Assembly (NCBI GenBank): GCA_016182095.1
Contig: JACOXY010000012.1
Span: forward strand, 25,864 to 89,863
Length of the DNA: 64,000 bases
Source: Candidatus Liptonbacteria bacterium
GTDB taxonomy: Bacteria > Patescibacteriota > Minisyncoccia > UBA6257 > JACOXY01
Reading direction: 5' to 3'
The stretch's first letter is position 1. Every line of letters begins with the position of its first letter. Positions 6,857 through 62,445 of the stretch are shown piece after piece. The translations under genes were made by a program, and so were the position numbers. The notes under the pieces are model-generated. The model had not been told where the DNA came from. It saw nothing but the letters and a program-made list of their open reading frames with translations, and did not search any database.

Positions 6857-7489
6857 TTATTTCTTATTTTGGCCCAAGATCTTGTGGGCAGCCGGGAAAA
6901 GGTAATTCGCGCAAAGTTCTTTGCGTTCTTTGGATCCACGCCACTCGGGAACGGTTTGGGGGGCCTTAAGTACTATCTGATAAAGCTCTTTAAATCTTGC
7001 AAGGTATTTTATACTGTCGCCATCCGTAACAAGTGATGCCAACCAATCTTCCTCGTCCAGCATGTCTTCAAGCAACTCTACAAAGCGCTTATGCTTTGTC
7101 TTCATCCTCATTAAAGCCATGAGCTTATCGTCAAAGGGATGTTCTGGCTCGTGCAGTTCGTGTTCTTCAGCCTCTGCCGAATCCATATCATCAACCAGGT
7201 CAAAATCATCTTTCATGACCTTCGCTATTAGGTGGGCATTTTTATGATCTTCGCCATCAGGAAAATTGAATTTCTGAAGAATATCCTTAAGGTCAAGCAC
7301 GGCCAAATCAAAATCATTTTGGAGCTTGGACATTATATTTTGAGCGGTTTTTTGCTCTCTTAAATATCCGCTCACAATATCAACCAAAACCTGTTTCAAT
7401 AAATCCGGGAAGTCCGAGCTCTCTCCAGAAAGTTTGTCTTTATTGGCATCTACAAATTCGGAGACTAGTTTTTGGTCGTCCACTGACAC
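6857..7489 (-). CDS. acidic hypothetical protein
   Basis: 210-aa ORF, D/E-rich; no recognisable domain. Confidence 0.45.
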   Translation of the reverse strand: MSVDDQKLVSEFVDANKDKLSGESSDFPDLLKQVLVDIVSGYLREQKTAQNIMSKLQNDFDLAVLDLKDILQKFNFPDGEDHKNAHLIAKVMKDDFDLVDDMDSAEAEEHELHEPEHPFDDKLMALMRMKTKHKRFVELLEDMLDEEDWLASLVTDGDSIKYLARFKELYQIVLKAPQTVPEWRGSKERKELCANYLFPAAHKILGQNKK

Positions 7490-11234: not shown

Positions 11235-11886
11235 GATTGGTTGTTTAGATAGCTACTGGCCGTCCTACAGACGGCAACAAATGTTATTTGTTAAATGTTG
11301 ATTGTTGCCGCCCGCAGGGCGGCTAGAGGAAAGTCCGAGCACTTAGCCTTGTGTTTCGCTCAAGGGAATTCGAAACTCTAATTTCTAAATTCTAAACAAT
11401 ATTTAAAATTCAAATTTCTAAAACTCTAAGCGAGAGCATTCTTTTATAGATTCTCCCGTTTGGAATTTTGAGTTTGTGCTTTGGAATTTGTTTAGGATTT
11501 CGAATTTAGGATTTAGGATTTTCTCGCGCGGAGCGCGAGGCATGAGTAGCGGGTAACGCCCGTCTGGAGTAATCCTAGAGGTGCGAACAGTGACGTCTCG
11601 CCCGAAAGGCGCGGGAAGGCCCAATCCTAAGCTAGTTGGCCTAATTCCGCATAAGGATAAAAAGGCGGAAGTGAAACGGCTAAATCCTTACTTGAGTGCA
11701 AGACCGTACTCTGGATTCTGGGGGCTGGATGCTGGATGTCGGAGTTGATCCGATTTCTAGCTTCCAGTTTCTGGACTCCGGTTTGTGTCGCTTGAGCCCG
11801 AGAGTAATCGAGGGCCCAGATAAATTGCTATTGCCCCTAAACCCGCGAGGGTCGGGGAACAGAACTCGGCTTATTAACAACCAATC
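11235..11886 (+). ncRNA. rnpB: RNase P RNA (bacterial type A-like) with a large AT-rich insertion
   Basis: P4 strands GAGGAAAGTCCGAGC and ACAGAACTCGGCTTA with compensatory changes. P1 pairs gattggttgtt (11235-11245) with aacaaccaatc (11876-11886). About 150-nt low-complexity insertion at roughly 11370-11520. Confidence 0.8.
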
Positions 11887-12025
11887 TATCCGCCAGAGCT
11901 TGACGCAAAGGTGGACACAAAATCGCCCCCCAAAAAAAGGGCGATTTTGTTTTTTAGTTCCTACCGCGCATACCCTCCACCTTCGCCAAGGCTTCGGAGG
12001 GCAAGCAAACCCTAAACCACATGCC

Positions 12026-12484
12026 CTATTTATTATCCAGCGCCTTATTTACCATTCCGTCAGCTTCTTTATTTTGTTCTCTTCTTACATGAATAAACTT
12101 AACGCTTTTGAAATCAAGCCGCAGGTTCCAAATATCAATAAATAACTCCCGCAGGGCCGGCTCCTCGATTTTGTAGATTCCGTTCATTTGTTTTACCAAA
12201 AGTTCGCTATCGGCGCGAATTTCTATCTCCATTTCTTTAGCTTTCTCTTTGCCGAAAAGCTGCTTGATTTTTTTTAAGGCAAAAATAACCGCAGAGTATT
12301 CAGCGACATTATTAGTTGTATCATGAATACGCTCTCCATATTTCCTCTTTGAACCGCCGAGATTTATTACAACTCCAATAGCGGCAGGCCCGGGATTCCC
12401 GCGAGCACCACCATCAGTATGCACCACTATTTTAGTGTTTGGTGTGCCAAATAGCGCTTCTGGTTGTTTTTTATTTTTTGTCAA
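12026..12484 (-). CDS. rnhA: ribonuclease HI
   Basis: HTDGGARGNPGPAAIG and NNVAEY RNase H motifs. Confidence 0.8.
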   Translation of the reverse strand: MTKNKKQPEALFGTPNTKIVVHTDGGARGNPGPAAIGVVINLGGSKRKYGERIHDTTNNVAEYSAVIFALKKIKQLFGKEKAKEMEIEIRADSELLVKQMNGIYKIEEPALRELFIDIWNLRLDFKSVKFIHVRREQNKEADGMVNKALDNK

Positions 12485-36640: not shown

Positions 36641-37508
36641 ATGCCAAAATTTAAATATATTGTAATTGTTTTAGCCATTTTGCTCGCAACTGCTTTGATC
36701 GCGGTTGTTTTGCCAAAACTATCTTTGCGCAATCAATATGGGTCAATGAATCAAGCCGATGAAGCCGTGAGAAATTTAAAAGTAATGCTTAACCGGGGCG
36801 TCACGCAAGTTCAGTATTTGATTAACGAAACCAATTTTTTATTGGCCAATCTTGCTCGTTCAAAAATTATAGCTGGCAAAGACGCTAAGGCCTGCGGTAG
36901 TCTTTTGGCGTCATATCTAAAGCGAGACGAAAAAAAATTCACAAATTTTGTGGTTGCGGATTTATGGGGTGACATTTGGTGTTCCAGTTCTCCCATAAAT
37001 CCGCTTGAAGACCGAATCAATGTCGCGGACAGGGCATATTTTCAAAGAGTAATGAGAGAAGGGGGGGGGGGGGCGATTTTCTGCCGGCGATTCTCAAGTT
37101 GGAAGAATTAGCGGCAAAGTTATTATTGTCTTCGCCCATCCCCTCATGAATCCAGAAAATAATAAAATAGATGGTTTGGTTGCCGTAGGCCTTGATTTAA
37201 GCTGGCTTGGAAAGTGGGTTCAGAATCTTAACATGTCAAGAGATTACACGTTTACTTTGTTGGATTCGGAGGGTTTTGTTTTGGCTCGCTATCCAAACGA
37301 CGGATTCGCTGCTGAAAAAATAAACGAGTCTGAAATTTATGAAAACATCATGATGGCAAAAAGCGCGAATAAAAACGAGGCGATTTTTGAAGCCAGTGGG
37401 CTTAATGGCCAAAAGCGCCTATTTGCATTCGCCGACATTCCCAATCCCCAAGCCCCACGAACACTTTTAGATTTATATTTAGTGGTTGGCCAAGCAATAG
37501 AGGAGTAA
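36641..37508 (+). pseudogene. Cache-like extracytoplasmic sensor domain protein, split by a frameshift at a G13 homopolymer
   Basis: ORFs 36641..37111 and 37146..37508 are contiguous Cache-like sequence (ADRAYFQRVMREGG | RFSAGDSQVGRISGKVIIVFAHPLMNPENNKIDGLVAVGLDLSWL). G12 instead of G13 at 37061-37073 would fuse them. Confidence 0.55.
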
Positions 37509-42670: not shown

Positions 42671-42693
42671 CATTGAGCTTATTATGCAGTTTA

Positions 42694-42727
42694 AACATTC
42701 TAACATTCTTGAGAATGTTAGAATGTT
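42694..42727. promoter_or_regulatory. 34-bp palindrome (15-bp perfect arms, 4-bp spacer) downstream of the ArsR-like gene
   Basis: aacattctaacattc-ttga-gaatgttagaatgtt. Confidence 0.6.
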
Positions 42728-42738
42728 TATTGATGAAA

Positions 42739-43005
42739 TCAAAAAGTTTTGGCGAACTTAACCATCATTTTGCCAAAAGGTGACAATGAATGCTCAACTT
42801 CCCTGCCATGATATTTCTTATAAAGAAGGCCAGCGCCAACCAAACGTCTCGTATGCTCTGATGCTGTTTTTATGTTGCAATCAAGTTCTTTAGAAATTGC
42901 CTCTAGGGTCATGCCTTCGTTGCTGGAAATTAAAAATAAAATATCAAGCCGCCTGTGATTTGCCATACCCTTGAAATATCTCTCTAACTGTTTTGATGTT
43001 TTCAT
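42739..43005 (-). CDS. ArsR/SmtB-family transcriptional regulator (paralog of 1671..1973)
   Basis: HRRLDILFLI...HTRRLVGAGLL; shares a C-terminal VEHxLSPxGK motif with the first paralog. Confidence 0.65.
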   Translation of the reverse strand: MKTSKQLERYFKGMANHRRLDILFLISSNEGMTLEAISKELDCNIKTASEHTRRLVGAGLLYKKYHGREVEHSLSPFGKMMVKFAKTF

Positions 43006-43024: not shown

Positions 43025-43058
43025 AGTTTTCCAAAACATTCTAACATTCTCAAGAATG
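43025..43058. promoter_or_regulatory. 34-bp palindrome upstream of the ArsR-like gene (putative operator)
   Basis: aacattctaacattc-tcaa-gaatgttagaatgtt; same arms as 42694-42727 with the spacer inverted. Confidence 0.6.
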
Positions 43059-43186
43059 TTAGAATGTTTTGGAATGGGTAATGAGTGGATAAGAAACCTT
43101 TTGCATTAAACTATGTCAGTAAATGGTTAATACAAGAATGTCGTAATGTTGTGGGCAAGATTTTAAGGTAAAAATCGCTCCGATGT

Positions 43187-45847: not shown

Positions 45848-47023
45848 TTGAAAATAGGACGCGCATTGAGACAGGTAAAGATAGTTTTAACCGGAGGACC
45901 TGCGGGCGGAAAAAGCAAGGGGCTAAAACGCATAAAAGAGTGCCAGGAAATTTTAGAATTGGGGTGGGATGTGGTAACAACCCCAGAATCAGCGACCATC
46001 ATTATTCCATGCGGATTTTCTCCGCCAAAATTTCTAAAACTTCCTGATAGAAAAAAGTATTTGGAAATGCAAAAATTGATCTTTAACACTCATTTATTTT
46101 TAGAAGACTCAATAAAAGACACAGCCAAAGAAGTATTTGGAGAACTTGTTTTAATGACACACGACAGAGGAATTCCTGATATAAAATGCTACAACACGGA
46201 AGAAGAGTATCAAAATTTTTTGCATAGCCGTAAAATGTTTGAAATTGAAGCGCGAGACGGGAGATATGACGCGGTTTTTCATCTTGCGACTATCGCGGAT
46301 ACCGACCCGGAATTATACATGAAAATATATGGGGAGAATGAGGCGCGTTATGAGGACACCCCAGAAAAAGCAATCGCGGCTGATCTAAAAACACGAGCCG
46401 CCTGGCTCGGACACCCGCACTTCAGAGTAATCCCAAACAGAACCTTAGACGGAAAAATTTTGAGCTTTGAGGAAAAAATGCGATTGCTTACACTGTATGT
46501 GAAGCAAATCCTGGCAGAAAATCCTTTAGAAGTTGAGAAGAAGTTTTTTCTTCACAACCCCGTGGAACTTGCGACATTCCCCGTGCCTTTTGTAAAAATT
46601 GAAATTGAGCAGATTTATCTAAGTGGAGCGGCTCATAAAGACAGAATCAGGCGTCGCACGCAAAACGGACATTCCCTTTACTATAGAACGCGGAAAAAAT
46701 CTACAAAAACAGCAGGCGTCAAAACGGAGAAAGAACGTAAGATTGGCCATGAAGAATACGAGGGCTTAAAAGAACTGGCTGATAGACATCGCCGTCCGAT
46801 TTTGAAAGACAGGATTCACTTCTTGTGGAAAAACCAATCTTTTGAACTGGATATATATAGAAGCCCCGAGCAAATTGCCGGAATGGCAATCCTGGAAAAT
46901 GAACTGCTAAGTGAAGAGGGGTTGGCGTCGCAAAATGCGGTAGAAGTCCCCGAATGGCTTGGGAAATATGATGATGTTACCGGTAAAAAAGAATATTCAA
47001 ACAGAAGTTTGGCGAGAAAATGA
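45848..47023 (+). CDS. P-loop NTPase fused to a CYTH (triphosphate tunnel) domain
   Basis: Walker A GGPAGGKSKG at the N-terminus; C-terminal EKKFFLH...IEIEQIYL...RIRRR...YYRTRK...EKERKI matches the CYTH beta-strand signature. Confidence 0.5.
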   Translation: MKIGRALRQVKIVLTGGPAGGKSKGLKRIKECQEILELGWDVVTTPESATIIIPCGFSPPKFLKLPDRKKYLEMQKLIFNTHLFLEDSIKDTAKEVFGELVLMTHDRGIPDIKCYNTEEEYQNFLHSRKMFEIEARDGRYDAVFHLATIADTDPELYMKIYGENEARYEDTPEKAIAADLKTRAAWLGHPHFRVIPNRTLDGKILSFEEKMRLLTLYVKQILAENPLEVEKKFFLHNPVELATFPVPFVKIEIEQIYLSGAAHKDRIRRRTQNGHSLYYRTRKKSTKTAGVKTEKERKIGHEEYEGLKELADRHRRPILKDRIHFLWKNQSFELDIYRSPEQIAGMAILENELLSEEGLASQNAVEVPEWLGKYDDVTGKKEYSNRSLARK

Positions 47024-47087
47024 TTTGCTTTTTGAGTAATAATTTAGTACATTAGTTCCAGCGAGCCAGAGCTTAAGGGAGAAGAGA

Positions 47088-47462
47088 ATGGCCGTAATAG
47101 AGCGAAAAGTTACTTACATTGTGCAATACAGTTACCCCGCATGCCGTGATGACGGCGATCCCGACGGTTTTCACGATATATTCTGGCTCAAAAGTTCTAT
47201 AAAAGTAGATGCTCTTAACGATCAAGAGGCGCAACTGGCCTCTATGGGAAATGAATCTCATAGAGAGGAGGTTTGCTATCATGGAAGACGCGCAAATCCA
47301 TCGGCAATAATAAAAATAGTAGAGGAATTGACGAAGGATGGATGGGAGCGACGCACTGAATCAGAAGTTCCGCTTCCTCGTCTTGAGCAATGTCCTTGTG
47401 GCAAGAAATATTGGCCAATAAAAGGCGAGAGAAAATGCCATGAGTTGGTTCCTGTGTGCTAA
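47088..47462 (+). CDS. hypothetical Cys-rich protein
   Basis: 124-aa ORF; C-terminal CPCG...C..C pattern. Confidence 0.4.
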   Translation: MAVIERKVTYIVQYSYPACRDDGDPDGFHDIFWLKSSIKVDALNDQEAQLASMGNESHREEVCYHGRRANPSAIIKIVEELTKDGWERRTESEVPLPRLEQCPCGKKYWPIKGERKCHELVPVC

Positions 47463-47475
47463 ATCCGTTTAATAT

Positions 47476-47612
47476 AAACCCGCAATGCTTCCTACTCCAA
47501 ATAGGCCCCGCGTAGTCTGCCACGATTCGCGGGCTTTTTTATATCTAAATAAAACCTGTAATGTTTTTTACTCCAAACCGGCCCCGCGTAATCAACGCCG
47601 ATTCGCGGGGAT
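47476..47612. repeat. tandem duplication (two ~77-bp units) of the mpg 3' coding end plus its terminator
   Basis: Both units carry ..tactccaaa..ggccccgcgta.tc..c..cgattcgcggg + T run. They encode VDYAGPVWSKKHYRF and ADYAGPIWSRKHCGF respectively. Confidence 0.65.
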
Positions 47613-48268
47613 TTTTGAATTTTAAACTTTGCCCGAAGTACATCCTGCGTAGTTCGACTGCGCTCACCATAAACTTTGCCGAAGGATTTCCTTTCTTCCA
47701 CCCACAGCTCGCTTTTTTTATCTGCCTTTTTTCCATTAAACCTTTTGTCAATTTTAAAAAATTTGGTAAGTTTCCCCGGGCCCGACATCCGAAGTCCCAA
47801 ATATTGAGGTTCCCTGCTTTTTGACTTCGGATGTCGCCAAGTTGAGCTTTGCTGGCCAATTTTAGGAGATCCGACCTCTGAAACACACCCATTGGGGAAG
47901 ACTGGGGGCGGGTGGTTTCGGGTTTCCGAGGTCGGATCTCGTGGGCGATCAGATATCAAGACGCCACGGATTAAAACCGCCGCCGGATAATCTTTGGGGC
48001 CCGTCACCACATTTAGCATCCAGTGCATGCCATAGGTTAAATAAACATACCACACTCCCGCCTCGCCAAACATCACCGCGTTCCGCGCCGTTTTCCCGCG
48101 ATGCGCGTGAGACGCCTTGTCCTTAAACCCGTCGTATGCTTCAACTTCAGTTATCATCGCCGCAATTTCCTTACCCTTTATCCTGCGCACCAAAAACTTG
48201 CCTAAAAGATTTCTGGCAACAACAACGGTGGACTTTTGAAAATATGGCTTTTTAAGAATTTTTTTCAT
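47492..48268 (-). CDS. mpg: DNA-3-methyladenine glycosylase (Mpg/AAG family) with an in-frame ~60-aa GC-rich insertion
   Basis: N-terminal ARNLLGKFLV...EVEAYDG...VWYVYLTYGMHWMLNVV and C-terminal GPGKL...PRIGVDYAGPVWS. The insert between them corresponds to the hairpin-rich DNA at about 47760-47945. Confidence 0.65.
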   Translation of the reverse strand: MKKILKKPYFQKSTVVVARNLLGKFLVRRIKGKEIAAMITEVEAYDGFKDKASHAHRGKTARNAVMFGEAGVWYVYLTYGMHWMLNVVTGPKDYPAAVLIRGVLISDRPRDPTSETRNHPPPVFPNGCVSEVGSPKIGQQSSTWRHPKSKSREPQYLGLRMSGPGKLTKFFKIDKRFNGKKADKKSELWVEERKSFGKVYGERSRTTQDVLRAKFKIQKSPRIGVDYAGPVWSKKHYRFYLDIKKPANRGRLRGAYLE

Positions 48269-48668
48269 TTGACAGTTTTGGTTACTTATTTTAGCATAAC
48301 ACCAGATATCAGCAAAAAATGGCGGGTGGATGGATTTCGAAAAAGAGGCTGAAAAGATTTTTGCAATTTATGACGAAATCGCAAACGCAAGAAAAGCGCT
48401 CCATTTTCTTACAAATCCCATTATGAATTCTGCCCGCGCAGAGCTGGGGATAGTTATAACAGCCCTTCGGACTGTTTTGCTGATACTTATCAGAGATTTT
48501 CTACTCGCCTATGGTGAACCGAACACGGTATTTTTTTAAGAACCATCAAGTGCCGCAGTGTGCACGCCGAAAATTGCTACAAGGAAATAGTGGAACTTCT
48601 CACCATGGAGAATGGCGTTGAATATTGTAAACGACTGGGGCTTGTGTAATCACAAGCTCTTTTTTATT

Positions 48669-48998
48669 TTATATGGCCTCCGCAATTTCTTCCATAATCG
48701 CTTGCGGCAAAGGACTCCCCGGCTTGGTCACTCCGGGATACCGCCACGCGGAAATAATTTTCATTTTCCTTATTACTTGTTTCTTGTTACTTGTTACCTT
48801 TTCTGTCATTACCCATATCTCATGAGGCCTTGTCTTGCTCCCCGCCTGCTTCATATATGCAATCGTATCAGGCGCTATCCCCTCCTCAATACGCTTGGGC
48901 CGTGAAATCACACCACGCACCATCTGCTCGGATAATCTGTAAAAACGCATTTTATATTTGGCGTGATTGGTCCAGAAGTATTGTTGCATATAAATCAA
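48669..48998 (-). CDS. hypothetical protein (possible toxin-like small protein)
   Basis: 109-aa ORF; no confident family assignment. Confidence 0.35.
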   Translation of the reverse strand: MIYMQQYFWTNHAKYKMRFYRLSEQMVRGVISRPKRIEEGIAPDTIAYMKQAGSKTRPHEIWVMTEKVTSNKKQVIRKMKIISAWRYPGVTKPGSPLPQAIMEEIAEAI

Positions 48999-49002
48999 AA
49001 AT

Positions 49003-49050
49003 TAAATATCCTTATACGGCCGAGCCGTCAGGCTTTAGGCAAAAATAAAA
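49003..49050. repeat. 48-bp intergenic repeat family, copy 2 (inverted relative to copy 1)
   Basis: Reverse complement of 28858-28905. Confidence 0.7.
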
Positions 49051-49115
49051 ATTACGGTAGTCCTTCGACAAGCTCAGGAACTATATTCACAACCACCCAG
49101 GATTTGCACTATACC

Positions 49116-49940
49116 CTATACCCCATTGGCTATACCCTCTGTTGCAATCTTAATTATTTTTCCAAATTCCTCCGCACTTAAACTCGCGCCACCAACAAGG
49201 GCTCCATCAATATCCTTCTCGCTTAAAAACAATTCGGCATTGGAAGCTGTCACGGAGCCACCATATAGAATAAGAGGGTTTAGGCTAAAGTCCGATGGGC
49301 TCGCCCGTTTAGGGGTATGGGGTTTAGCCATTAGCAGTTCTTTGATGAAGCGAGCCATATTCGCGGAGTCCTGCGGTTTGTCGGGGACGCCGGTGCCAAT
49401 TGCCCAGATGGGCTCATAAGCAACTATAATAGGGTCTGGGGTTTGGGGTATGGGGTATAGGGTTTGAATATTTTTTAGATCCGCTTCGAGTTGGGATTTA
49501 ACATAATCTTTCGCGGCATTAAGACCTTTATCGCGAACCTCCCTGGGCTCACCAACACACAATATCACTTTTAATCCCGCAGCTTCGCAGGCGATAATTT
49601 TCTTATTTATCATCTCATCTGTCTCATGAAGTATCATCCTCCGTTCCGAATGTCCGATTATAGCGTAAGATACGCCAAGATTTCTTAGCATCTTTGGCGA
49701 TATTTCCCCCGTAAAGGCGCCAGCATCTTCCCAAAAAGCATCCTGCGCTCCAAAATGAATGCCCTCATATTCTTTTTTCAGAGCCCGGTTAATTAATTCT
49801 TCCAGGTGCGTAAAGGGCGGGGCTACCACCACGCGAGCTCCGTATTTTTCAGCAAATTTTTCCGTTGCGTCAAAAAGATCGCGGGCTTCGTCCAAAGTAA
49901 CGGGGTTCATCTTCCAATTGGCAATTAGCAGTTTCTTCAT
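49116..49940 (-). CDS. tpiA: triosephosphate isomerase
   Basis: IANWKMN; AIIGHSERR; GGASL. Confidence 0.85.
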   Translation of the reverse strand: MKKLLIANWKMNPVTLDEARDLFDATEKFAEKYGARVVVAPPFTHLEELINRALKKEYEGIHFGAQDAFWEDAGAFTGEISPKMLRNLGVSYAIIGHSERRMILHETDEMINKKIIACEAAGLKVILCVGEPREVRDKGLNAAKDYVKSQLEADLKNIQTLYPIPQTPDPIIVAYEPIWAIGTGVPDKPQDSANMARFIKELLMAKPHTPKRASPSDFSLNPLILYGGSVTASNAELFLSEKDIDGALVGGASLSAEEFGKIIKIATEGIANGV

Positions 49941-53264: not shown

Positions 53265-53458
53265 CCAGGTAGTAGAAATGCGAGTGAAGTTTTTGAAAAA
53301 TATGGTAACACCATCGATCAAATCCACAGAGATATTATCGGTCAGTATTTATACCCGATCGATAACAATCGATAACCTCGTCAATTGAACGATCGTTTGT
53401 TATACGAGGTCTTGGAGTTGGTAGAAAGAAATGCTCGTATTTTCACTACCTGGTCAAG
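53263..53458. mobile_element. ~196-bp MITE-like element A with terminal inverted repeats
   Basis: The ends ccaggtagtagaaatgcgag / ctcgtattttcactacctgg are inverted copies. The core (~130 bp) is 95%+ identical to the reverse complement of 62259-62390. Confidence 0.6.
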
Positions 53459-62258: not shown

Positions 62259-62445
62259 ACCAGGTAGTGAAAATGCGAGCATTTCTTTCTACCAACTCCA
62301 AGACCTCGTATAACAAACGATCGTTCAATTGACGAGGTTGACGAGGTTATTGATTGTTATTGATCGGGTATAAATACTGAACGAGAAGCAGAAATCGAAC
62401 CCGCGTCTCAACCTTGCCGGGTAGTAGAAGTGCGATTACATTTTT
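62259..62445. mobile_element. MITE-like element B, inverted copy of element A, abutting tRNA-Gly
   Basis: 62259-62390 is about 95% identical to the reverse complement of 53330-53458. A second 20-bp motif copy (ccgggtagtagaagtgcga) lies at 62417. A tRNA-3'-half-like remnant (gcgggttcgatttctgc) lies between them. Confidence 0.55.

What the first reader, a model, noticed from the sequence alone, without database searches (positions are those of the whole stretch)
47476..47960. mpg (3-methyladenine glycosylase) carries an in-frame GC-rich double-hairpin insertion and a tandem duplication of its 3' end plus terminator
Between conserved MPG blocks (…VLIRGV and GPGKL…) lies a ~180-bp GC-rich segment with two perfect inverted repeats (cgacatccgaagtc/gacttcggatgtcg; ggagatccgacctc/gaggtcggatctc) that keeps the reading frame open. 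It could be a miniature inserted element tolerated in-frame or a structured RNA within the gene. Downstream, two ~77-bp tandem units each contain the codons for the MPG C-terminus (VDYAGPVWSKKHYRF / ADYAGPIWSRKHCGF) followed by a GC hairpin + T run, so the gene end and its terminator have been duplicated.
Basis: seen in the sequence. Interest (0 to 1): 0.6.

Follow-up and report, generated by a model that had tools for sequence, protein, structure and literature searches.

The report
Palindromic DNA modules inside a repair gene
A DNA-repair gene of an uncultivated ultra-small (CPR) bacterium carries, in frame, two copies of a short hairpin-forming DNA module that also sits inside many unrelated housekeeping genes of related bacteria, much like the "selfish" palindromic elements known from Rickettsia, and the gene's last 25 codons have also been duplicated in tandem.

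Summary
They hold two perfect hairpins and fold far better than shuffles (z -5.5). A 76-bp tandem duplication of the gene's 3' end is also real. The region is 100% identical in two independent assemblies.

The insert is not an intron or a known RNA. The arms of hairpin I1 are one compensated base pair away from a 13-nt palindromic unit, GA(A/G)GTC(C/G)GAC(C/T)TC, which has no stop codon in any frame. Pairs of this unit sit in frame inside enolase, PNPase, ATP synthase beta, LepA, MiaA, CysRS, ProRS and other genes, on contigs traced to Giovannonibacteria and Wolfebacteria, with several copies per contig. The same MPG loop carries hairpin inserts in 20 of 27 relatives with long loops. These include a second module family that is 96.7% identical to a copy in a CysRS gene but in reverse orientation.

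Best reading: Rickettsia-palindromic-element-like modules translated as a disordered loop. How they spread is unknown.

The duplicated 3' end is unique to this lineage and old. It removes the stop codon, adding 15 residues. Its hairpin plus T-run lies on the opposite strand, where it would terminate the convergent neighbour gene.

The parts
47492..48268 (-). mpg (3-methyladenine / alkyladenine DNA glycosylase), 258 aa, intact ORF
   Evidence: PF02245 E 1.6e-50. TIGR00567 150.7 bits, above its cut-off. AF2 core pLDDT >93. Foldseek match to human AAG, TM 0.73-0.78 normalised to the target. Residues aligned with human E125/Y127/H136/Y159/Y162/N169/R182 are conserved (residue roles from my own knowledge).
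47783..47959 (-). Site-1 insert: 59 codons (residues 104-162) where the clade baseline is 5 residues; translated LISDRPRDPTSETRNHPPPVFPNGCVSEVGSPKIGQQSSTWRHPKSKSREPQYLGLRMS
   Evidence: Fold z -5.52. Predicted disordered: pLDDT 46-63, no secondary structure.
47866..47940 (-). Hairpin I1: arms 47866-47884 / 47922-47940 with a 37-nt loop. The 13-mers GAGATCCGACCTC and GAGGTCGGATCTC are the dispersed unit GAGGTC(C/G)GACCTC with one compensated base-pair change.
   Evidence: Unit matches with at most 1 mismatch in the window: 3 found against 0.08 expected, 0 of 100 shuffles reach 3. Canonical units.
47783..47836 (-). Hairpin I2: arms 47783-47801 / 47818-47836 with a 16-nt loop. The arms GACATCCGAAGTC / GACTTCGGATGTC are a more diverged relative of the same unit (9 of 13 to GAAGTCCGACTTC).
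   Evidence: Assignment to the family is an inference.
47623..47684 (-). Site-2 extension (about 15 extra codons, ...SFGKVYGERSRTTQDVLRAKF...), bounded by a 14/15-nt direct repeat TTCGG(G)CAAAGTTTA. Shared with the closest relative L003.
   Evidence: (D8). The interior is not significantly similar to the tandem unit.
47552..47625 (-). Tandem unit copy 1: the functional last ~25 codons of mpg (KFKIQKSPRIGVDYAGPVWSKKHYRFYLD).
   Evidence: The hairpin in the SPRIGVDYAGP codons is stronger than synonymous resampling predicts (z -3.2).
47476..47549 (-). Tandem unit copy 2: a diverged duplicate (76-78% identity), shifted +1 relative to the mpg frame.
   Evidence: Found only in this lineage among 78 loci tested.
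47495..47539 (-). 15-residue C-terminal tail (KKPANRGRLRGAYLE) produced by reading copy 2 out of frame. The ancestral stop after ...LDI is missing.
   Evidence: L003 ends ...FFLDI*. pLDDT <50.
47504..47540 (+). Hairpin (CCCGCG...CGCGGG) followed by TTTTTT, starting about 40 nt after the stop of the convergent ORF: a terminator-like site on the + strand.
   Evidence: (the only terminator-like hit in 46900-48500).
47088..47462 (+). Convergent 124-aa ORF of unknown family. A different, co-directional 107-aa ORF occupies this position in L003.
   Evidence: No Pfam, PHROGs or NCBIfam hit.

Best explanation
The extra segment in mpg is made of two diverged copies of a short palindromic DNA module lodged in a protein loop that tolerates insertions.

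The module family:
- It is built on a 13-nt unit, GA-NN-TC-(C/G)-GA-NN-TC. The canonical forms are GAAGTCCGACTTC and GAGGTCCGACCTC.
- The unit is itself a palindrome and has no stop codon in any of the six frames.
- Two units with a short spacer form a hairpin.
- Such modules are scattered, several per contig, through genomes of Parcubacteria-type CPR bacteria. They sit in frame in surface loops of housekeeping enzymes.

The site in this MPG clade:
- The loop between the strand ...VLIRG and the helix GPGKLT... is normally 5 residues.
- It has been occupied repeatedly and independently by hairpin-forming inserts from at least two module families, in both orientations.

In the window:
- The insert is most likely transcribed and translated as a ~55-residue disordered loop. 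The catalytic core is intact. This step is inferred, not shown.
- The element most likely behaves as selfish or neutral DNA, like Rickettsia palindromic elements.
- How it spreads is unknown. No target-site duplication or transposase was identified.

The tandem duplication is a separate event:
- An old 76-bp tandem duplication of the last ~25 codons put a second copy one base out of frame.
- This removed the original stop and added 15 residues.
- It left a hairpin plus T-run, on the opposite strand, directly behind the convergent 124-aa ORF. There it most plausibly terminates that gene's transcript before it runs antisense into mpg (inferred).
For: Insert delimited:
- 41 of 79 orthologues have a 5-aa loop and 38 have 9-60 aa. 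The window's is the longest.

Hairpins at this site are general:
- 20 of 27 inserts of 14 aa or more fold with z below -2 (down to -13), with perfect arms up to 23 nt.
- Only 1 of 27 same-length upstream coding controls does.

The module is dispersed:
In 27 of them, 29 matches are the extended 13-mer pair.
- Ten host ORFs are verified by Pfam with the module inside and in frame: enolase, alanine racemase, PNPase, ATP synthase beta, LepA, MiaA, CysRS, CCA-adding enzyme, ProRS and TrxB.
- The modules are read in different frames: GSPTS, KSDF, EVRP, EVGLP.
- Four of the six host proteins looked up are named Cand. Giovannonibacteria or Wolfebacteria; the other two carry no name.
- Units beyond the ascertained pair: 13 in 175 kb, about 1000 times chance. 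One 11-kb contig, L097, has five modules.

Link to the window:
- I1 arms are within 1 mismatch of the unit, and the two changes pair with each other.
- The window has 3 such hits against 0.08 expected.
- GGAGATCCGACYTC also occurs at a different mpg site in L032. Canonical units occur at site 1 in L010 and L083.

Second family:
- A 61-nt core is 96.7% identical between the CysRS of L171 and mpg site 1 of L016, in reverse orientation. It lies forward in L032, L028 and L020.

Presence or absence among close relatives:
- PNPases 94% identical to a module-bearing one have a 9-aa loop instead.

All 83 mpg loci are intact. The insert is predicted to be disordered and the core confident.

Duplication. 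Terminator-like site. Same sequence in independent assemblies.
Against: - No other full copy of either hairpin in the 64-kb window. The source genome was not in the genome collection, so copy number in this organism is unknown.
- I2 matches the canonical unit at only 9 of 13 positions.
- The window's loops (16 and 37 nt inside the extended arms) and the rest of the insert have no detectable relative. The peptide search of 1.84 billion representatives gave only one chance hit.
- No clean empty-versus-filled site with defined ends was obtained. In the PNPase pair the whole loop differs.
- No target-site duplication was seen and no mobilising enzyme was identified.
- Many site-1 palindromes in relatives are unique sequences. 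They could have arisen locally rather than by insertion.
- No expression or protein data exist for the insert.
- The terminator role of copy 2 rests on a consensus scan only.
Confidence: 0.7

Rival explanations
1. The hairpins arose in place, not by insertion of a mobile module. Replication template switching or slippage at a short local palindrome repeatedly copies neighbouring sequence in inverted or tandem form. Products survive only in a loop that tolerates them.
For: - Many site-1 inserts are unique, near-perfect palindromes with 0-4-nt loops (L008, L067, L012, and L003 site 2 with a perfect 42-bp palindrome).
- The shortest extensions (L019, L026, L027) are mini-hairpins built around a local TCCG...CGGA.
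- Two otherwise identical ProRS genes differ by a 12-nt tandem duplication at the module's edge.
- The empty PNPase loop already contains TCCGAC.
- The window itself has a 76-bp tandem duplication at another hairpin.
Against: - The same 13-mers occur in ten or more unrelated genes and in several copies per contig.
- A 61-nt core is 96.7% identical between a CysRS and an mpg, in opposite orientation.
- Local copying cannot produce identical sequence at unrelated loci.
- The two processes may act together, with a module seeding a site and local expansion following.
Confidence: 0.15
2. The hairpins, or the 13-nt unit, are kept because they work at the DNA or RNA level. They could be a protein-binding, uptake or recombination sequence, or an mRNA-stabilising or regulatory stem. 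They sit in permissive protein loops because these compact genomes have little intergenic space.
For: - Both window hairpins are perfect, and I1 differs from the canonical unit by a compensated pair.
- The unit is conserved across candidate phyla and is stop-free in all six frames.
- Stem changes in the second family are compensated between L020 and L028/L032: AATTCGCC/GGCGAAT against AATTTTTC/GAAAAAT.
- Density of about 0.07 extra units per kb in carrier contigs.
Against: - The units are absent from half of the orthologues and from 94%-identical PNPases.
- Uncompensated decay of one arm is seen in L083 and L032.
- Spacers and flanks are highly variable.
- No Rfam family matches.
- Only three near-units occur in the 64-kb window, far too few for an uptake-sequence-like role in this organism.
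Confidence: 0.1
3. The segment is an intervening sequence that is removed, either as an intron or by ribosomal bypassing, or mpg is a decaying pseudogene.
For: - The strong secondary structure is confined to the insert.
- The tail and insert have low predicted order.
Against: - Every extended loop (38 loci) and every verified host gene keeps the frame with no stop. Excision or bypassing would not require this.
- No intron family matches.
- 59 aa is far too small for an intein.
- Catalytic residues and the fold are intact.
- The identical protein was recovered from independent samples.
Confidence: 0.03

Closest known systems
Rickettsia palindromic elements (RPEs; Ogata et al. 2000, Claverie & Ogata 2003, as summarised in PMC10969869)
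   Same: Both are dispersed, hairpin-forming repeats. Both insert in frame into unrelated housekeeping genes of a small-genome bacterium. Both add a peptide segment at a place compatible with the fold. Both have tens of copies per genome and no associated transposase.
   Different: RPEs are about 100-150 bp, each encodes one conserved peptide, and they are confined to Rickettsia. The modules here are 30-56 bp, made of two self-palindromic 13-mers with a variable spacer. Solo units also exist, and they are read in several frames. They occur in CPR bacteria. Similarity to RPE consensus sequences was not tested, and none is expected given the different size and unit. This element works like an RPE but is not shown to belong to any RPE family.
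Bacterial MITEs found inside genes (Coxiella QMITE1/2, PMC5896051; enterobacterial RU/ERIC, PMC2759123)
   Same: Small non-autonomous palindromic repeats that sometimes create in-frame fusions or extensions.
   Different: MITEs have terminal inverted repeats derived from an IS element and are flanked by target-site duplications. No duplication and no parent IS were seen here. The unit is far shorter.
REP elements and their RAYT transposases (PMC3733652)
   Same: 20-40-bp GC-rich palindromes, in high copy number, often in pairs.
   Different: REPs lie outside genes and carry a GTAG or CGTC head. The unit here starts GAAG or GAGG and sits inside genes. No RAYT was identified, and a candidate ORF in L049 gave no Pfam hit.
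Coding palindromes in Nematomorpha mitochondrial genes (PMC6649704)
   Same: Long perfect inverted repeats embedded in translated protein-coding genes.
   Different: In Nematomorpha both arms encode conserved parts of the protein. Here the palindromes are extra, non-conserved loop material and belong to a dispersed family.
Highly iterated short palindromes and uptake sequences (cyanobacterial HIP1, Neisseria DUS, Haemophilus USS; from my own knowledge)
   Same: Short over-represented words, often as inverted pairs, tolerated inside coding regions at permissive positions.
   Different: Those occur roughly once per kb. Here there is about 0.07 extra unit per kb in carrier contigs, and only three near-matches in the 64-kb window. 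No function has been tested.

Membership tests
MPG/AAG DNA glycosylase (PF02245, TIGR00567) | Profile match above the curated cut-off | tested here: met
   PF02245: 171.4 bits against a cut-off of 27. TIGR00567: 150.7 against 116.35.
MPG/AAG DNA glycosylase (PF02245, TIGR00567) | AAG fold and conserved catalytic and intercalating residues (human E125, Y127, H136, Y159, Y162, N169, R182) | tested here: met
   Foldseek to 1bnk, 1f4r and 1ewn: E 1e-14 to 1e-15, TM 0.73-0.78. E43, Y45, H54, Y76, Y79, N86 and R101 are invariant in alignment A1 and align with the human residues. Enzyme activity was not tested.
RPE-like intragenic palindromic repeats | The same sequence occurs at many unrelated loci and in several copies per genome | tested here: met
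   Met for the unit family: 29 modules in 27 metagenome loci, and 13 extra exact units in 175 kb against 6e-5 per kb expected by chance. For the window's own genome it is inconclusive: 3 near-units in 64 kb against 0.08 expected, and the genome is not in the collection.
RPE-like intragenic palindromic repeats | Inserted in frame in functional protein-coding genes | tested here: met
   Ten Pfam-verified host genes carry the module inside an uninterrupted ORF. mpg is intact in all 83 loci.
RPE-like intragenic palindromic repeats | Forms a hairpin more stable than chance | tested here: met
   z -5.52 for the window insert. 20 of 27 relatives have z below -2.
RPE-like intragenic palindromic repeats | Present or absent among close relatives (insertion polymorphism) | tested here: inconclusive
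   PNPases 94% identical to a carrier lack the module, but the whole loop differs, so the ends of the insertion are not defined. No close relative of the window's mpg exists in the databases; the best is 54% identical.
RPE-like intragenic palindromic repeats | Retained in the mRNA and translated | not testable with these tools
   Only indirect support: the frame and absence of stops are always preserved.
Rickettsia RPE families proper | Sequence homology to an RPE consensus (~100-150 bp) and one conserved encoded peptide | not tested
   No RPE consensus was compared. The size (30-56 bp) and multi-frame reading differ from the description in PMC10969869, so membership is not claimed.
MITE | Terminal inverted repeats plus a flanking target-site duplication | tested here: not met
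   The flanks of 29 modules show no consistent direct repeat. The arms are self-palindromic units, not IS-derived ends.
REP/RAYT system | GTAG or CGTC head on the palindrome, and location outside genes | tested here: not met
   The units begin GAAG or GAGG and lie inside ORFs. Definition taken from PMC3733652.
Self-splicing intron or other described structured RNA | Match to a curated RNA family | tested here: not met
   No relevant Rfam hit at E of 1 or less in window 46000-49500, nor at E of 0.1 or less in six related loci.
Intrinsic (Rho-independent) terminator, for copy 2 on the + strand | GC-rich stem followed directly by a T-run downstream of a stop codon | tested here: met
   Stem at 47514-47535 followed by TTTTTTATATC, about 50 nt after the stop at 47460-47462. 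It is the only such site in 46900-48500. Function was not tested.

The most novel reading that the evidence does not exclude
The 13-nt unit GA-NN-TC-(C/G)-GA-NN-TC may define a previously undescribed class of ultra-short palindromic elements across CPR bacteria. The unit has no stop codon in any frame. These elements would systematically colonise and remodel surface loops of core enzymes. They might be kept because they do something at the DNA level, for example as recognition sites for uptake, recombination or a mobilising enzyme. The MPG loop would then be a preferred landing site because hairpins attract further hairpins; L032 shows one module nested inside another.
Probability: 0.2. Interest if true: 0.8.

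Novelty: new variant of a known kind. Interest (0 to 1): 0.6.

Why it matters
In-frame selfish palindromes have so far been a curiosity, mainly of Rickettsia. Here the same phenomenon, with a much shorter unit that has no stop codon in any frame, appears inside core enzymes of Candidate Phyla Radiation bacteria: ATP synthase, aminoacyl-tRNA synthetases, PNPase, enolase and MPG. Three things follow.

- Annotation: part of the puzzling length variation and low-complexity loops in CPR proteins would be mobile DNA, not adaptation.
- Protein evolution: these inserts give natural data on which loops of conserved enzymes tolerate insertions, and on how new peptide segments arise.
- Genome maintenance: long perfect palindromes persist in these genomes, and a mobilising or copying mechanism remains to be found.

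I found no paper in the searchable open-access library that contains these sequences or describes such elements in CPR bacteria. Subscription literature was not covered.

Tried and rejected
- Scan of species-representative genomes for the I2 hairpin: 0 hits, not even the locus itself. The source MAG is not in that collection, so the test says nothing about copy number.
- HMMER search of the 59-aa insert peptide against 1.84 billion representatives: one marginal hit to a repetitive protein, judged chance.
- Rfam on the window region and on six related loci: nothing relevant.
- Viral contig scans for both canonical modules: 0 hits.
- Census of perfect inverted repeats and a sliding z-score scan of the whole window. 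Other strong hairpins are intergenic terminators or operator-like palindromes, and no other gene shows a comparable in-frame double hairpin.
- Idea that the site-2 extension is a third copy of the tandem unit: local alignment is no better than shuffles.
- Idea that three loci without anchor motifs carry broken mpg genes: all three are intact.
- Target-site duplications around 29 modules: none consistent.
- A transposase-like ORF next to mpg in L049: no Pfam hit.
- PHROGs, NCBIfam and Pfam for the 124-aa neighbour: nothing.
- Sequencing-adaptor contamination was considered, because AAGTCGGA also begins MGI adaptors (my own knowledge). I rejected it. The modules lack the rest of the adaptor and keep reading frames. 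They are assembled in contigs from many projects, and they vary in ways that fit evolution.
Full report
**1. What is there**

The window comes from a Candidatus Liptonbacteria MAG. The 258-aa product of the minus-strand ORF 47492..48268 is identical to an NCBI protein of that name. It is a DNA-3-methyladenine glycosylase (PF02245, E 1.6e-50), but 233 residues cover only 176 profile positions.

- Two perfect inverted repeats lie at 47783-47796/47823-47836 and 47866-47878/47928-47940. Both extend to 19 nt.
- The frame stays open through 59 extra codons, 47783-47959.
- There is a tandem repeat of period 76, with 1.9 copies and 76-78% identity, at 47476-47625.

The insert folds at -74.5 kcal/mol (z -5.52, 0 of 200 shuffles as good). 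The neighbouring 185 nt of the same gene give z +0.65. The whole region 47300-48400 is 100% identical in Logan assemblies of two other sequencing runs, so it is not an assembly artefact.

**2. The insert is extra, and the site is a hot spot**

I collected 80 loci encoding relatives from species-representative genomes and added the closest relative, L003.
- 41 of 79 anchored orthologues have just 5 residues (for example VEGIN) between ...LIRG and GP(A/G)(R/K)LT.
- 38 have 9-60 residues. The window has the longest.
- The loops are not homologous as proteins.
- Three loci missed by my anchor patterns are intact as well.

In human AAG this position holds a 31-residue helical segment. It is therefore a naturally length-variable part of the fold.

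An AlphaFold model gives pLDDT above 93 for the core. Residues 106-158 score 46-63 with no secondary structure, and the last residues score below 50. The model superposes on human AAG-DNA complexes with TM 0.73-0.78. The residues aligned with the catalytic and base-flipping residues of human AAG are conserved. The gene looks functional.

**3. The extra loops are hairpins at the DNA level in most lineages**

Of the 27 inserts of 14 aa or more, 20 fold with z below -2 (down to -13). Perfect arms reach 23 nt (L010), 21 nt (L067), 20 nt (L031) and 18 nt with no loop (L008). Same-length coding controls just upstream centre on zero, and only 1 of 27 falls below -2.

Perfect inverted repeats with arms of 12 nt or more occur 21 times in 49 kb of mpg. 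In 217 kb of flanks they occur at most 17 times inside long open frames. In the 64-kb window no other gene has a comparable feature. Other strong hairpins are terminators or operator-like palindromes.

**4. The core of the hairpins is a dispersed unit**

The arms in the window resemble arms in other loci.
- Window I1: GAGATCCGACCTC. Window I2: GACATCCGAAGTC.
- L031: ACATCCGACTTC. L010 and L083: GAAGTCCGACTTC.
- L032 carries GGAGATCCGACTTCC at a different place in mpg, near residue 33.

Many of these are chance or terminator-like. In 27 loci, however, 29 matches are the full 13-mer pair, GAAGTCCGACTTC...GAAGTCGGACTTC or GAGGTCCGACCTC...GAGGTCGGACCTC.

Most of them (22 of 29) lie inside open frames of 80 codons or more. 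I verified ten hosts with Pfam: enolase, alanine racemase, PNPase, ATP synthase beta, LepA, MiaA, CysRS, CCA-adding enzyme, ProRS and thioredoxin reductase. In each, the module sits inside an uninterrupted ORF.

The module is read in different frames in different genes (GSPTS, KSDF, EVRP, EVGLP, GRTS). The unit has no stop in any of the six frames, which can be read directly from the sequence.

Four of six host proteins looked up are named Cand. Giovannonibacteria or Wolfebacteria; the other two carry no name. Both arrangements of the central base (C...G and G...C) and solo units exist. Beyond the pair that brought each contig in, there are 13 further exact units in 175 kb, about a thousand times chance. 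One 11-kb contig has five modules. None was found in viral contigs.

In the window, matches to the unit with at most one mismatch number 3 against 0.08 expected (0 of 100 shuffles reach 3). Two of them are the arms of I1, and their single differences pair with each other.

**5. A second family confirms mobility**

The three-way-junction insert at mpg site 1 of L032, L028 and L020 shares a 61-nt core with a segment of the CysRS gene in L171 (87% identity). That CysRS segment is 96.7% identical to the site-1 insert of L016, but in reverse orientation. Further copies lie outside mpg in L030 and L071.

In L032 this element sits inside an outer stem made of unit-like sequence (CCGACTTC...GAAGTCGG). 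That is a nested arrangement. Site 1 has therefore been occupied independently by different palindromic modules, in both orientations.

**6. Presence and absence**

PNPases 94% identical to a module-bearing one have a 9-residue loop (LSDDGKAHK) in place of LEATPGKKSDFPGKSDFEEGSRYK. Others at 84-85% carry a larger version. More distant ones carry a TSDV...TSDV variant.

At the DNA level the whole loop differs, and the empty allele already contains TCCGAC. The ends of the inserted DNA are therefore not defined. Two otherwise identical ProRS proteins differ by a 12-nt tandem duplication at the module's edge. No consistent target-site duplication flanks the 29 modules.

These points keep alive a contribution from local template switching or slippage. 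That process cannot by itself explain identical sequences at unrelated loci.

**7. The tandem duplication**

Copy 1 (47552-47625) is the working 3' end of mpg. Copy 2 (47476-47549) is shifted by +1, so mpg reads on for 15 residues (KKPANRGRLRGAYLE) to a stop at 47492-47494. L003 stops right after ...FFLDI and has no second copy.

Among 78 loci tested, only the window has the duplicate. Copy 2 shares CCTATT with L003 where copy 1 has CCGGTT. Elsewhere copy 1 matches L003. Both copies therefore descend from the ancestral end and have diverged since.

The hairpin is formed by the SPRIGVDYAG codons, and the T-run is the complement of the lysine-rich codons just before them. Both are terminator-like only on the + strand. 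In copy 1 the hairpin is stronger than synonymous codon resampling predicts (z -3.2). The family shows a mild tendency the same way: mean z -0.76, with 14 of 78 below -2.

Copy 2 begins 13 nt after the stop of the convergent 124-aa ORF. It is the only terminator-like site found by the scan in 46900-48500. In L003 that ORF is replaced by an unrelated co-directional ORF, while the AAA_28 and DUF1653 genes beyond are syntenic. The duplication thus lies at a rearranged junction. I infer, but have not shown, that copy 2 now terminates the neighbour's transcript.

**8. Comparison with what is known**

The closest described phenomenon is the Rickettsia palindromic element. RPEs are about 150 bp and occur 44 times in R. 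conorii, and nearly half are in frame in unrelated genes (PMC10969869). The behaviour here is the same. The architecture, size and host differ, and no RPE homology is claimed.

- MITE criteria (target-site duplication, IS-derived ends) are not met.
- REP criteria (GTAG or CGTC head, location outside genes) are not met.
- Coding palindromes of Nematomorpha mitochondria (PMC6649704) differ because both of their arms encode conserved protein.

No paper in the searchable library contains the unit sequences or describes such elements in CPR bacteria. Subscription journals are not covered, so prior description cannot be excluded.

**9. Verdict**

The 'in-frame miniature element' reading is supported, the intron or RNA reading is not, and the 'duplicated terminator' needs its strand corrected.

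The window's element is a somewhat diverged instance of a family that appears to be a new, very short variant of RPE-like intragenic palindromes in CPR bacteria.

Shown:
- sequence features and their reproducibility;
- delimitation of the insert;
- the generality of hairpins at this site;
- dispersal of the unit and of a second family in unrelated genes.

Inferred:
- translation of the insert as a tolerated disordered loop;
- its selfish or neutral nature;
- assignment of I2 to the family;
- the terminator function of copy 2.

Unknown:
- the mechanism of spread.

Noticed in passing
window 53375-53410 and 62303-62338: A 36-nt near-palindrome (ACCTCGTCAATTGAACGATCGTTTGTTATACGAGGT) occurs twice in inverted orientation, about 8.9 kb apart. 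The two copies bracket a block of about ten ORFs and tRNA-Thr. tRNA-Gly lies just outside. They could be the ends of an inserted or invertible segment.
   Followed up: no
window 42692-42729 and 43029-43074: Two perfect palindromes (18- and 22-nt arms) share the core AACATTCTAACATTCT|AGAATGTTAGAATGTT. They flank an 88-aa MarR/ArsR-type winged-helix gene (42739..43005, minus strand) and are probably its operators.
   Followed up: partly
window 11701-11790: A long imperfect hairpin (-48.7 kcal/mol, z -7.6) with a TCGGA...TCCGA centre, inside an ORF with no Pfam hit (11696..12145). It is not a tRNA.
   Followed up: partly
window 7409-7421: A solo near-unit GAAGTCCGAGCTC (1 mismatch) inside ORF 6857..7489 (minus strand), read as ...ESSDF.... 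It may be another decayed copy of the module family in this genome.
   Followed up: partly
window 49248-49343 (TIM gene 49116..49940, minus strand): Triosephosphate isomerase has a 10-residue insertion relative to L003's TIM (MAKPHTPKRASPSDFSLN against GFMGLGQN). Its DNA contains TCGGACTT, read as PSDF. It does not form a hairpin and may be a decayed unit.
   Followed up: partly
L003 5540-5581: The closest relative's mpg carries a perfect 42-bp palindrome with no loop (TTTACTTGCTTATCTCCACGA|TCGTGGAGATAAGCAAGTAAA), in frame at site 2.
   Followed up: partly
L006 156-180, L020 1592-1616, L028 1592-1616, L083 1583-1607; L032 1324-1354: There is a third insertion site in mpg, near residue 30. Four loci carry a 12-nt-arm palindrome there (CACTTAGACGTC in L006, L028 and L083; CACTTGGCGTCC in L020). 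L032 has a unit module at that site, read as GDPTSPGSRTS.
   Followed up: partly
L198 2018-2075 (ProRS; proteins P0134 and P0136): Two otherwise identical ProRS proteins differ only by a 4-residue (12-nt) tandem duplication, GAGCTCCGAAGA, abutting the module. This is evidence of ongoing slippage at module edges.
   Followed up: yes
PNPase loop, proteins P0137-P0178; loci L092 and L204: The same PNPase loop is empty in 94%-identical relatives and carries KSDF-type units in others. More distant Patescibacteria carry TSDV...TSDV peptides, which may reflect a related unit (their DNA was not examined). It looks like a second hot spot similar to mpg site 1.
   Followed up: partly
L070 114-156 (UvrC); L078 2978-3003 (Maf); L060 733-777 (endonuclease III-like): Perfect 12-13-nt-arm inverted repeats lie inside other genes next to mpg. 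The one in UvrC looks like an extra segment. The ones in Maf and Nth lie in conserved coding sequence.
   Followed up: partly
window 36956-37004: A perfect 13-nt-arm hairpin (GCGGATTTATGGG...) inside a 156-aa ORF with a weak dCache hit. Whether it is an insert is unknown.
   Followed up: no
mpg 3' end across 78 loci: The codons for (S/T)PRIGVDYAGP tend to form a hairpin more stable than synonymous resampling predicts (mean z -0.76; 14 of 78 below -2). It is preceded by A-rich lysine codons. This gives a terminator-like structure on the antisense strand in many CPR mpg genes.
   Followed up: partly
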